This document shows, one piece after another, positions 70 through 41,224 of a stretch of DNA of 64,000 nucleotides. Position numbers and translations under genes: made by a program. The notes beneath the pieces were generated by a model. It was not told where the DNA came from. It saw only the letters and a list, made by a program, of their open reading frames with translations, and ran no database searches. The stretch comes from Octopus vulgaris. Its lineage: Eukaryota. Position 1 is the first letter of the stretch; every line of letters starts with the position of its first letter. The stretch lies in NCBI GenBank assembly GCA_951406725.2, contig OX597820.1, positions 32,860,001-32,924,000 on the forward strand, read 5' to 3'.

Positions 70-361
70 CACCGTGATCACCGTGACCGACCAGGCTATC
101 AGATGTTGCTACACAACGCTGGTCACAATGCGCTTCGCATTGTTTTAGCCTTCAAATGACGCCACCCCGCTGGCTAAGCGAGCAGGCCAACAGAAGAAAG
201 AGTGCGAGAAAGTTGTGGATCGCCACCACCCCCTGTCAGAGCCTCGTAGAGCTTTAGGTGTTTTTCGCTCAATAAACACTCACAACCCCCGGTCTGGAAA
301 TCGAAACCGCGATCCTACAACCGTGAGTCCGCTGCCCTAACCACTGGGCCATTGCGCCTTC
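70..361 (-). mobile_element. tRNA-derived SINE, head/body C with tail 2
   Basis: Minus strand begins GGCGCAATGGCCCAGTGGTTAGGGCAGCGGAC...GGTTTCGATTTCC (A/B boxes). Body matches 11217 and 18258 copies; tail matches 4571 copy. Confidence 0.85.
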
Positions 362-639
362 TTGTATATATGTGTGTTTGCGTGTGTGTGTGTGTGTGTG
401 TGTGTGTGTATTGTGTATTTGTATGTATGCTTTTATGTATATACATATTTTATACATTATATACATCATATATATATATATATATATATATATATATATA
501 TATGACTATCGATTTACGAGTGCGCATAGATGCTTACATACAAAACGATCAACTTGTGTTTACTTATAAATTCATTGCAAACAGTTAGTTAGCAAACCAC
601 TGCTGTCACATCGTCACTAATCCAACGTTAGTAACACCA

Positions 640-2075
640 GAACAACACGCTCTTCGTGAAGCAAGCAGGCGAAGAGAGACTCCTCTGCAAAGCACAATAC
701 ATCTTGCTAGAAGTAGCAGCCAATTTTCCCTCATATTAATCACACCTTGCTGCCCTAAGAAAAGAATGAAAAATAAGTTATACATCAGATGTAGTATTCC
801 TAGATATACTATGCCTGATAACACTTCGTGGAGCAAGCTGACCAAGAGAGCCTTTATACAACCACTCGTCCTACTAGAACAAACAGCTAATTTTCACTCA
901 TATTAATCGCATCTGGTCTGTTAGGAAAATAATAAATAAATGAGTGGCACACTGGATGATGTACTCCTAGGTACACTATGGAACGTTGTCAGAAAAACAT
1001 CTTTAATCGGGTGTCTGCTGGAACATGACTGACCCGGGGCTAAACAGCAATCCCTTACACCTACCTTCTTAAAGAAGTATTGAAAAATGTGTAGCACATA
1101 GGATGATGTATTCCTTGATATTCTATGCCCGATGAAAAATATAGGATGTTTATTGTTGGAAAAGAAGATCGTTGATCGTGTTTCTACTGGAACAGGACTG
1201 ACCTGGGGCTAAACAGCAGTTTATCACCTCTACCGCCTCAAGGAAGTAATGAAAAATGTGCGACACATTGGATGAGGTATTCCTAGATACACTATGACTG
1301 ATGAAAAATGTAGGATGTTTACTGTTGGAAAGAAACTTTTGATCGTGCGTTTACTGGAACAGGACTGTCCTGGTGTTAAACGACAATTTCCTCGCGACGT
1401 AGCATTATACTATGCCAGACAGCTTGCAAACCTCTATGTGATCGTACCATCTGCTAGAAGTAGCAGCTAAATTTGCCTCAAATTGCGGCCAGTCGTTTAC
1501 CACATCGAGACAAAATGTTAGAATAAGTCTAGCTTTAGGTACACTGCAAGTAAGTAGAGGCAGCTATGATTGGAGCGTCTTTTGTCATCTGCCCCTTGGA
1601 CGAAGGATGATTCGGAACTAAATGACAACGTTACAGCTACACAGTATCACTTTATGTAACACTTCGCGTCAATGAGAGAGCCTATATGTGGTCACTGGAG
1701 TTGCTAAAAATAACAGGTGAACTTCCCTCAAATCACATCCTACCGTCTACGCCTTGTGAAAGTACAGAACGCCATTGTATAAAGTAGTAGTTTTATATAC
1801 TACTAAAAACAAAGTGGATTGACCAAGGGTTGACCAAGCACAACAGTATATCATCTAAGGAGTCTCTACGTAAGCGATAAATCTATTAGAAACAGCAGCT
1901 ATTTTTTTTTTCAGCATTTTACACCCTATCGTTTATAATATTAAAGAAAAGGAGACTGGACACAGTAAGTAATGTAGTCCCAGATAGCATGAAAACGAAA
2001 ACCGAGAGTCACACCTGAAATACCTTTATCTATAGATCTGCTGGATCGGTGTAAACCTGGAGTTAAACAACGGCA
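640..2075 (+). repeat. Degenerate tandem array of ~170-bp units of an old repeat
   Basis: GACTGACC(C/T)GGGGCTAAACAGCA-like and TTCCTAGATACACTATG-like motifs recur at ~1026, ~1196, ~1364 and ~2055; related piece at ~62970-63140. Confidence 0.6.
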
Positions 2076-2094
2076 ATACTATAATAATCAATAA

Positions 2095-2297
2095 CAGTTT
2101 CACAGTTTGGCACAAGGCTAGCAATTTTGAGAGAGGAGTAAGTCGATTACATCGGCCCCTGTGTTCAACTGTTACTTATTTATCGACTCCGAAAAGATGA
2201 AAGACAAAGTCGACCTCGGCGGAATTTGAACTCAGAACGTAAACACTGATGAAATGTTTGCCCGGTTTGTTAACGATTCTATTAGCCCGACGCCTTC
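2095..2297 (-). mobile_element. SINE family B, diverged copy
   Basis: Contains the B core AAAGTCGACCTCGGCGGAATTTGAACTCAGAACGTA shared with many copies in the window. Confidence 0.8.
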
Positions 2298-39400: not shown

Positions 39401-39516
39401 AAATTAAGTTAATTGGGACCTCGAAGTTCTGCAGGCAACTACAATGCGTGCAAGCATGTGAATGCGTGCGTATGAGTATAACATGGGAATATACACGTTT
39501 ATCTTACGCATATATA

Positions 39517-40207
39517 GGCGGAGGAGTGGCTGTGTGGTAAGTAGGTTACTTACCAACCACATGGTGCCGGGTTCAAACCCACTGCGTGGCACCTTGAGCA
39601 AGTGTCTTCTACTATAGCCTCGGGCCGACCAAAGCCTTGTGAGTGGATTTGGCAGACGGAAACTGAAAGAAGCCCGTCGTTTATATATATGTGTGTGTGT
39701 GTGTGTGTGTGTGTGTGTATGTGTGTGTGTGTGTGTGTGTGTGTGTGTGTATGTGTCTGTGTTTGTCCCCCCAACATCACTTGACAACCGATGCTGGTGT
39801 GTTTACGCCCCCGTCACCTAGCGGTTCGGCAAGACAGAACGATAGAATACATAGTAGGCGGTGAGTTAGCAGAATCGATAACATGTTGGGCGAAATGCTT
39901 ATCGGTATTTCGTCTGCTGTTACGTTCTGAGTTCAAATTCTACTGAGGTCGACTTTATCTTTCATCCTTTTGGGATCGATAAATTAAATACCAGTTATGC
40001 ACTGGGGTCGATGTAATCGACTTAATCCCTTTGTCTGTCCTTGTTTGTCCCCTCTATGTTTAACCCCTCCTGGGCAATAAAGAAATAAGAATAAGTACTA
40101 GGCTTACAAGGAATAAGTCCTGGGGTCGATTTGCTCGACCAAAGGCGGTGCTCCAGCATGGCCGCAGTCAAATGACTGAAACAAATAAAAAGATAAAAGT
40201 AAAAGAA
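39517..40207 (+). mobile_element. SINE A with nested SINE B (39857-40089)
   Basis: A sequence breaks at GATAGAATA and resumes AGAATAAGTACTAGG after the B tail. Confidence 0.85.
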
Positions 40208-40972
40208 TACATACACATCCCCGCAGACATGTACATAAATACACGTGCGCAAGAACACACGTACATGCATATTCACACAAACACACAGGCACACACACAG
40301 ACACATACACACACATCTTTTGTTGTTTATATTTAACTTGTTTCAATTATTAGACTGCTGCAATGCTCGGTTACCACCTTGAAGAATTTTTAGTCGACTC
40401 TGGGACATTTTATTTTTAGGCCTGGTATTTATTCCATCGGCTTCTTAAGCCGAACGGCTAAGTTACGTAAATGAACCAACGCCGGTTGTCAAGTTATGGT
40501 GGGGGAACAAACACAGACAACACATAGGCACGACTTGTTTTTCTTTCAGTTTCCGTCTACTAAATCCACTCACAAACTTTTAGTCGGTCACAAGTAAAAG
40601 TAAAAGACACTTACTTGCCCAAGGTACCACGCAATGAGACTGAACTCCGAACAACGTGGTTGGGAAGCAAAAAAACTTACCATTCAGTTATGCCTTCCCT
40701 TATATATACATATACATATACATATATATATATATATATATATATATATATATATATATATATATATATATATATATATATATATATATATGTATATACA
40801 TATATGTATATATTATGTATATATATATATATATATATATATATATATATGTGTATATATATATATGTATATATATATATATGTATATATTATATATATA
40901 TATATATATATATATATATATATATATATATATATATATATATATATATATATATATATATATATCTTATAT

Positions 40973-41224
40973 AATAAATGCGCCCTCTTAAAGCCTAGCC
41001 AGGCTCATAGGCCCGGTTACCCGATTTCTATGGCATATGTGTTCCCCAGCTGGACGGGACGCCAGTTCATCGCAGCGTTGCTCATTTTTGCCAGCTGAGT
41101 GGACTGGAGCAATGTGAAATGAAGTGTTTTGCTCAAGAACACAACGCGTCGCCAAGTCCAGGAATCGAAACCACAATCTTACGATCGTGCTGCTGACACC
41201 CCAACCACTAAGCCACGCGCCTCC
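40973..41224 (-). mobile_element. SINE head/body D with tail 3
   Basis: GGAGGCGCGTGGCTTAGTGGTT head, D body, tail shared with 18258. Confidence 0.85.

What the first reader, a model, noticed from the sequence alone, without database searches (positions are those of the whole stretch)
70..41224. Complete 2 x 3 matrix of SINE heads and tails
Seen: body C with tail 1 (11217), tail 2 (70) and tail 3 (18258); body D with tail 1 (5397), tail 2 (4571) and tail 3 (40973). The switch occurs at about the same point after each body. Known: SINE tails are usually borrowed from partner LINE 3' ends, and tail exchange is documented for CORE-type SINEs. Inference: repeated module swapping lets these SINEs use several LINE machineries; finding all six combinations in 64 kb suggests each is a real amplified subfamily.
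Basis: partly seen in the sequence, partly recalled or inferred. Interest (0 to 1): 0.7.

Follow-up and report, generated by a model that had tools for sequence, protein, structure and literature searches.

The report
Octopus SINE families that trade tails
Six short jumping-DNA families built from two front halves and three back halves are each copied many times across this probably octopus genome, and they are one slice of a larger, patchy set that likely arose when the copying enzyme hopped from one element's RNA to another's, a kind of part-swapping already reported in a periwinkle.

Summary
All six front/tail combinations are in the window and each is an amplified family: about 4,000 to 42,000 copies estimated from a 1.4 Mb sample, whole elements sitting in 11-13 nt target-site duplications (weak for D-tail 2). 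The matrix is complete only because three tails were picked. The sample shows seven tails; D's tails 4 and 5 and C's tails 6 and 7 are not joined directly to the other body. The join is not always at one point: D-tail 2 keeps a ~45-50 nt piece of a tail-3-like segment, C-tail 3 arose twice, and C took tail 4 inside tail 1. D is a CORE-SINE and older; C is younger and likely captured existing tails. Only tail 2 was traced to a LINE (RTE type); it also occurs without a head (1,185 exact junction hits). D-tail 3 is often fused to a second SINE in one insertion, a likely trace of enzyme template jumps. 'Several LINE machineries' is not shown. A reciprocal 2 x 2 is published for Littorina. The scan's earlier notes report other template-jump chimeras in this genome; I found none on this set.

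The parts
70..359 (-). C body + tail 2; 18 nt internal deletion, first 4 nt missing
   Evidence: 97.2% to family consensus; 39 other matches at 86-93%
4573..4826 (-). D body (CORE) + start of tail-3-like piece + tail 2, with an internal deletion across that join
   Evidence: 88.6% to family consensus; junctions of relatives listed; CORE primer match at 4688-4712
5395..5721 (+). D body + tail 1, old copy
   Evidence: 80.4% to family consensus; 39 other places at 77-81%
11215..11605 (+). C body + tail 1, young full-length copy with short terminal repeat; 12 nt target-site duplication at 11203-11214 and 11606-11617
   Evidence: 98.9% to consensus, flanks printed; 39 other matches at 98-99%
18259..18561 (-). 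C body + tail 3 (lineage C3b, which carries the end of D's CORE at the join); first 11 nt missing
   Evidence: 94.5% to consensus
40974..41226 (-). D body (CORE) + tail 3 with T-rich end
   Evidence: 94.7% to consensus; 39 other places at 93-94%; CORE primer match at 41088-41112
   Evidence: 79% to tail 4 consensus
41354..41384 (-). fragment of D body
   Evidence: 97% over 31 nt
12573..12601 (+). short tail-3-like fragment
   Evidence: 90% over 29 nt
48115..48160 (-). decayed tail-3 fragment
   Evidence: 74% over 46 nt

Best explanation
The six elements are separately amplified SINE families that share two front parts and three tails, within a larger and incomplete set of combinations that likely arose by rare template jumps of a LINE reverse transcriptase between SINE RNAs. 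Shown: the families, their target-site duplications, the extra tails, nested joins, two origins of C-tail 3, head-less tail 2, the match of tail 2 to the 3' end of an RTE-type LINE, and fused pairs of SINEs inside one duplication. Inferred: D (tRNA-like head + CORE) is the older front; C arose when most of the CORE was replaced by a piece resembling an RTE 5' UTR; within roughly the last 25 million years C captured tails already carried by D families or free. In each capture the enzyme would start at one RNA's tail, copy it, and jump to the other RNA near the end of its body; a product with a promoter head and a recognisable tail then founds a family. The mobilising LINEs are likely RTE-clade elements, probably more than one family.
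For: Evenly spaced 1.4 Mb sample: C-T1 14, C-T2 8, C-T3 15, D-T1 17, D-T2 2, D-T3 7, D-T4 16, D-T5 6, C-T6 3, C-T7 1, C-T1(part)-T4 1. Non-simple duplications around whole elements: C1 35 of 46, D1 23 of 42, C3b 20 of 35, C3a 7 of 10, D3b 17 of 35, D3a 4 of 5, C2 5 of 33; swapped-flank controls average 0-1.0; medians 11-13 nt. The tail-3 tree has two clades (97/98), each with C and D carriers. 36 of 39 C3b copies, and 0 of 13 C3a, keep the TGAGTAA-like end of D's CORE, which is the CORE end in a published bivalve SINE. The T1/T4 join has 273 exact hits and also keeps the CORE end. 6 of 38 D3 copies are followed within 15 nt by a same-strand SINE head, against 0 of 235 other elements and 0.0006 expected per copy; by eye 4 of the 6 share one duplication. 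Tail 2 versus the RTE 3' end scores 45-47 against 16.8 +/- 3.0, 0 of 2000 shuffles. Median divergence of unselected copies: D1 0.21, D2 0.22, D4 0.12, C families 0.03-0.08.
Against: No partner LINE was found for tails 1, 3, 4, 5, 6, 7 in about 2 Mb, and the RTE family found is only about 74% identical to tail 2, so it is a relative and not the proven partner. The fused pairs are end-to-end joins, not the mid-element jumps that a tail swap needs. The array in L157 shows that DNA-level exchange through a shared tail also happens. D-T2 rests on 2 sampled copies plus search hits, with duplications barely above control (5 of 24, control 1.15). Trees on 105-183 columns are mostly unresolved. Consensus-based ages are rough.
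Confidence: 0.72

Rival explanations
1. One reading: tail swapping lets the two bodies ride several different LINE machineries, one per tail.
For: Landing pattern follows the tail more than the body: (AT)4 follows 21 of 33 C-T2 copies but 3 of 46 C-T1 and 2 of 45 C-T3, and 6 of 8 RTE copies end the same way. The tails are unrelated in sequence and, except tail 2, do not match this RTE end. A published O. vulgaris annotation lists 176 RTE consensus sequences besides CR1, Dong-R4 and L1-Tx1.
Against: No CR1, Dong, Tx1, Penelope, BovB-like or other RTE 3' end in hand matched tails 1 or 3 above shuffles, apart from SINE pieces lying next to LINE ends. Duplication lengths are alike for all three tails. 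Only 6 of 24 D-T2 copies show the (AT)n pattern. Different families of one clade would explain the data as well; this reading overlaps the best explanation and differs in needing several clades.
Confidence: 0.3
2. New combinations were made at the DNA level, by unequal recombination or gene conversion between neighbouring or similar copies, and one recombinant then amplified.
For: L157 holds a tandem array of D-T1 and 5'-cut C-T1 units whose tails are homogenised. Copies are dense (118 heads in 1.4 Mb). The literature names non-allelic recombination beside template switching (PMC4758252).
Against: C and D are not similar at the joins; homology ends near position 105, about 90 nt before C's tail join. 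Fused pairs with one duplication and no spacer point to RNA-level joining.
Confidence: 0.15
3. Some combinations, D-tail 2 above all, are scattered one-off chimeras and not families.
For: D-T2 spacers vary in length among copies; only 2 copies in 1.4 Mb (95% range 500-14,500 genome-wide).
Against: The D-T2 copies share a head lineage, a tail-2 variant of their own (one side of a branch, support 97, on 9 of 31 copies long enough to use) and, by eye, the same spacer with differing deletions. The other five have many full-length copies with duplications.
Confidence: 0.05

Closest known systems
Snail SINEs Lsa_3 to Lsa_6 of Littorina saxatilis (PMC4758252; passages and section 13 read)
   Same: Heads and tails reciprocally combined, all four of a 2 x 2 present; no partner LINE found for the tails.
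   Different: There the swap is around a shared central domain; here C and D differ at the join. Here there are at least seven tails, nested joins, repeated origins and copy-number estimates.
Bipartite RTE-derived SINE parts and tail exchange: WALLSI, Ceph-SINEs, Mar-1 (Kojima 2018, PMC5786205; parts 1-4 of 5 and part of the supplement read)
   Same: tRNA head + CORE piece + RTE 5' piece, later tail replacement; head-less bipartite RTE units as a source of tails. Tail 2 fits this, and C's body resembles a BovB-type RTE 5' motif by eye.
   Different: C and D lack the Ceph-SINE motifs printed in that paper (by eye). 'Octopus' has 0 hits in its supplement.
Octopus OK, OR1, OR2 SINEs (Ohshima and Okada 1994; not held, nothing read; named as CORE-SINEs in PMC4824008, PMC4758252, PMC5804259)
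   Same: tRNA-derived SINEs of an octopus; OR1 and OR2 are cited as CORE-SINEs. From memory only, OR1 is about 390 nt and OR2 about 270 nt, close to C-T1 and to a D family.
   Different: No sequence comparison was possible; identity is a guess. Three families were described, against at least eleven combinations here.
BivaCORE-SINE2 of scallops (PMC4824008; passages, section 10 and parts of supplement 2 read)
   Same: Its CORE primer matches two D copies in the window with 2 and 3 mismatches, none expected by chance; the printed CORE ends in the same AAATGAGT motif.
   Different: Its tail is reported as L2-like; no L2 match was found for any tail here.

Membership tests
SINE (SINEBase definition, PMC3531059) | short, interspersed, at least 100 copies | tested here: met
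   246-380 nt; lowest 95% bound 500 copies (D-T2), others 3,000 or more
SINE (SINEBase definition, PMC3531059) | inserted as a unit by retrotransposition (target-site duplication) | tested here: met
   clear for C1, D1, C3, D3, above control for C2, marginal for D2
SINE (SINEBase definition, PMC3531059) | head derived from a tRNA, with A and B boxes | tested here: inconclusive
   A- and B-box-like motifs seen by eye in the consensuses (box patterns recalled); ARAGORN found 0 genes and Rfam gave no tRNA match on two copies, so the source tRNA is not identified
SINE (SINEBase definition, PMC3531059) | transcribed by RNA polymerase III | not testable with these tools
   needs RNA end mapping or in vitro transcription
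CORE-SINE (body D) | ~65 nt CORE domain after the head | tested here: met
   published BivaCORE-SINE2 primer matches 2 of the 3 full D copies at up to 3 mismatches, 0 in 100 shuffles; rest of the domain alike by eye
CORE-SINE (body C) | ~65 nt CORE domain after the head | tested here: not met
   C aligns with D only to position ~105, about 25 nt into the CORE; C works like a CORE-SINE that lost most of the domain
Bipartite RTE unit (tail 2) | 3' end homologous to an RTE LINE end | tested here: met
   score 45-47, 0 of 2000 shuffles; LINE family of at least 150 copies; RTE clade assigned from recalled protein motifs, Pfam support only faint (E 0.025)
Bipartite RTE unit (tail 2) | 5' part from an RTE 5' UTR | tested here: inconclusive
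   by eye shares TTRGCCAGCG-GGTG...GGCTAAAAC with RTE-2_MMa 115-157 in Kojima's supplement; four tries at the genome's own RTE 5' end gave two inverted pieces and two unrelated flanks
Bipartite RTE unit (tail 2) | occurs on its own, without a tRNA head | tested here: met
   1,185 exact hits for (AT)n joined to the tail's first base; 12 of 12 fetched are tail only
Bipartite RTE unit (tail 2) | independent lineage with its own transcription | tested here: inconclusive
   head-less copies are intermixed with C-T2 in the tree (84 of 500 shuffles as low) and share both sub-variants, so they may be by-products of C-T2
Ceph-SINE | Ceph domain motifs (CCTTGGGAAAG; the 23 nt RTE-like stretch) | tested here: not met
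   absent by eye from the C and D consensuses against the sequences
Deu/Nin-SINE (middle of tail 1) | Nin domain | tested here: inconclusive
   two short motifs resemble BivaMD-SINE1 by eye; no scored alignment was made
Octopus OK / OR1 / OR2 | sequence identity to the published consensus | not testable with these tools
   paper not held; SINEBase supplement not readable

The most novel reading that the evidence does not exclude
This genome preserves a tail-exchange network in action: one RTE-type enzyme system jumps between SINE RNAs so often that intermediates are visible (D-T3 fused ahead of another SINE in about one copy in six), and a structure at the 5' edge of tail 2 makes the enzyme stop or the RNA break at one base, releasing thousands of head-less tails from C-T2 and giving swaps a fixed join.
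Probability: 0.3. Interest if true: 0.55.

Novelty: new member of a known kind. Interest (0 to 1): 0.3.

Why it matters
SINE module exchange is usually inferred from old, distant families. Here several swaps are recent (body C 94-96% identical across tails), leave a trace of their direction, and sit beside probable intermediates, so the order and mechanism of swaps can be tested by comparing related octopuses. It may also help sort the 1,279 'unclassified SINE' consensus sequences of the 2026 O. vulgaris annotation (PMC13282606) into a few modules. It does not change how SINEs are understood.

Tried and rejected
Partner LINEs for tails 1, 3-7: low-stringency BLAST of all tails over the held 2 Mb, 900 nt behind clustered ORFs and LINE 3' ends gathered with ten seed proteins (number of ends not printed) gave nothing above shuffles except SINE pieces lying near LINE ends. 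A closer LINE partner for tail 2: a pattern demanding four non-tail bases before its 3' motif gave 8 hits, 5 of them one-base deletions of ordinary copies; inconclusive, since such a LINE passes the filter only about one time in three. The RTE family's 5' UTR: 0 of 4 fetched stretches held it. Direct C-tail 4 join: 0 hits genome-wide; the D-tail 4 control gave 85 but was written with a base that D-T4 mostly lacks, so it shows that the search works and does not count the family. A D-tail 6 join was not searched genome-wide. Local origin of the window's copies: the variant shared by the window's C-T1 and C-T2 also occurs in 10 and 3 other copies, so rejected. My label 'old' for C3a was dropped: its divergence (0.069) equals that of C3b (0.075). 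The spacer lengths printed mix two reference modules and were not used. An HDV-like ribozyme at the start of tail 2 was considered by eye and dropped for lack of the pairing partner.

Full report
Observation. The window lies in a 2.8 Gb genome of 227 contigs, probably an octopus (inference from size, the microsatellite load and the repeat types; no name came from a call). They differ in age: C-T1 is 98.9% identical to its family consensus, D-T1 80.4%. C-T1 has a perfect 12 nt target-site duplication.

Are they families? For unbiased counts I took 140 evenly spaced 10 kb stretches from contigs C1-C23 (the smaller contigs were not sampled). Elements with both body and tail: C-T1 14, C-T2 8, C-T3 15, D-T1 17, D-T2 2, D-T3 7, which scale to about 28,000, 16,000, 30,000, 34,000, 4,000 and 14,000 copies with wide ranges. 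Duplications of median 11-13 nt enclose whole elements in C1 35 of 46, D1 23 of 42, C3b 20 of 35, C3a 7 of 10, D3b 17 of 35, D3a 4 of 5 and C2 5 of 33 (most C2 copies lie in microsatellites, where the test cannot score), against 0-1.0 in swapped-flank controls; D2 is marginal at 5 of 24 against 1.15 (these counts pool search hits and sample).

The matrix is a slice. The sample also holds D with tail 4 (16), D with tail 5 (6), C with tail 6 (3) and C with tail 7 (1); 22 D and 5 C bodies had no recognised tail. Over seven tails, body and tail are not independent (chi-square p 1.4e-5, small cells); over the three chosen tails they are compatible with independence (p 0.10). A direct C-tail 4 join had 0 hits genome-wide (control discussed under Tried and rejected). 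C did take tail 4, but 115 nt inside tail 1: two copies read have this build with duplications and the join has 273 exact hits. D-T2 normally reads D, then ~45-50 nt resembling the start of tail 3, then tail 2. So tails are stacked and replaced at several points.

What the parts are. D is a tRNA-like head plus CORE: a published CORE primer matches two window copies, none expected by chance, and the printed scallop CORE agrees by eye to its last bases. The D fronts of different tails are 78-91% alike and cluster by tail, so they are old separate lineages. C shares the head and ~25 nt of CORE with D at about 75%, then continues with a stretch that in lineage C3a has 12 bases in a row identical to a BovB-type RTE 5' motif in Kojima's supplement (by eye). 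C fronts with tails 1, 2 and 3b are 94-96% alike. Tail 2 ends in 52-59 nt homologous to the last codons and 3' end of a LINE family with at least 150 copies; I call it RTE from recalled protein motifs, with only a faint Pfam endonuclease hit. Both end in short GTGAT repeats and (AT)n. Its 5' part resembles RTE-2_MMa's 5' UTR by eye. Tail 2 also occurs alone, starting at one base inside (AT)n: 1,185 exact hits, 12 of 12 fetched being tail only. These head-less copies are intermixed with C-T2 and share both of its sub-variants, so they are either a free element captured more than once or precise by-products of C-T2 RNA; I could not decide. Tails 1 and 3 matched no LINE end in hand.

Order and direction. 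Median divergence of copies not selected by the searches: D5 0.25 (n 8), D2 0.22 (4), D1 0.21 (29), D3a 0.14 (7), D4 0.12 (26), C6 0.08 (4), D3b 0.078 (9), C3b 0.075 (10), C2 0.073 (10), C3a 0.069 (13), C1 0.027 (24). At the rate used in PMC13282606 (0.0036 per million years) 0.07 is about 20 million years, near the SINE peak that paper reports. D1 also has young subfamilies. The tail-3 tree splits into two clades (97/98), each with C and D carriers; C3a is a clade (100/99) among D copies (93 rows, bootstrap not settled). C3b keeps the end of D's CORE at its join in 36 of 39 copies, C3a in 0 of 13. So C gained tail 3 twice, and for C3b and for tail 4 the donor was a D element. For tail 1 the tree is unresolved and direction rests on age alone.

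Mechanism. 6 of 38 D-T3 copies with an intact end are followed within 15 nt by the head of another SINE on the same strand (five C-T3, one D-T3), against 0 of 235 other elements and 0.0006 expected per copy. Two came from the C-T3 search, three from the D-T3 search, one from the sample. In four, one duplication encloses both and there is no spacer (by eye). The simplest reading is that the enzyme finished one RNA and jumped to the T-rich end of a D-T3 RNA, which shows that these RNAs meet in one reaction. A jump in mid-element would give a tail swap; that step is inferred. One array (L157) shows DNA-level exchange through the shared tail as well. Whether different tails use different LINE clades is open: landing pattern follows the tail, duplication length does not differ.

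Comparison with what is known. A full reciprocal 2 x 2 is published for Littorina (PMC4758252). CORE plus RTE 5' bodies, bipartite RTE units and tail exchange are the subject of PMC5786205. OR1 and OR2 are cited as octopus CORE-SINEs, but the 1994 paper, the 1999 CORE paper and the SINEBase supplement could not be read; these and the Zenodo library of PMC13282606 could show that several combinations are catalogued. That annotation lists 1,317 SINE consensus sequences, 1,279 unclassified, 4 as tRNA-CORE-RTE, and in the parts read does not discuss modules (parts 1-2 of 3 and the supplement). Nine searches listed no paper on head/tail combinations of octopus SINEs; subscription journals are mostly outside the library. 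PMC9223172 and PMC3531059 were seen as passages only. Three look-ups in the scan's notes returned other template-jump chimeras of this genome and no note on this set; they are unchecked.

Verdict. Real, amplified families; an ordinary process in a new genome, with unusually fresh traces. New member of a known kind, interest 0.3.

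Noticed in passing
L087, L102, L106, L113, L078, L228: D-tail 3 fused directly ahead of a second full SINE; four of six inside one target-site duplication.
   Followed up: partly
L329-L340, L220 1734-1847, L283: Head-less tail 2 elements of about 120 nt that start at one fixed base inside (AT)n; the 5' part may fold as a pseudoknot ahead of an ATG (by eye).
   Followed up: partly
L157 1-2410 (G000:C28, 25.11 Mb): Tandem array of D-T1 units with 5'-cut C-T1 units; its monomer matches a young dispersed D-T1 subfamily with its own 3' end.
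   Followed up: partly
L026 596-1089; L294 (minus strand): Family C + first 115 nt of tail 1 + tail 4; 273 exact junction hits.
   Followed up: partly
L258, L212, L242, L094: C-tail 6, about 500 nt, ending in (GAA)n; a short motif resembles the RTE 5' piece of IdioSINE2 by eye.
   Followed up: no
L285, L028: C-tail 7 ends in (CAA/CAG)n with a small hairpin like the BovB-type RTE end in L276, but without a significant sequence match.
   Followed up: partly
L341, L342: Two copies of the RTE-type LINE have their endonuclease part inverted relative to the 3' part.
   Followed up: no
L038 1980-3300: Tandem array of a ~259 nt unit that contains the last 79 nt of tail 2 and part of another SINE.
   Followed up: no
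window 20602-22191 (+): Open frame of 530 aa rich in single-residue runs, no Pfam match; it runs into a gap of 100 N at 22084-22183.
   Followed up: no
window 992-1381 and 41682-42105: Tandem repeats of 169 nt (2.3 copies) and 134 nt (3.1 copies).
   Followed up: no
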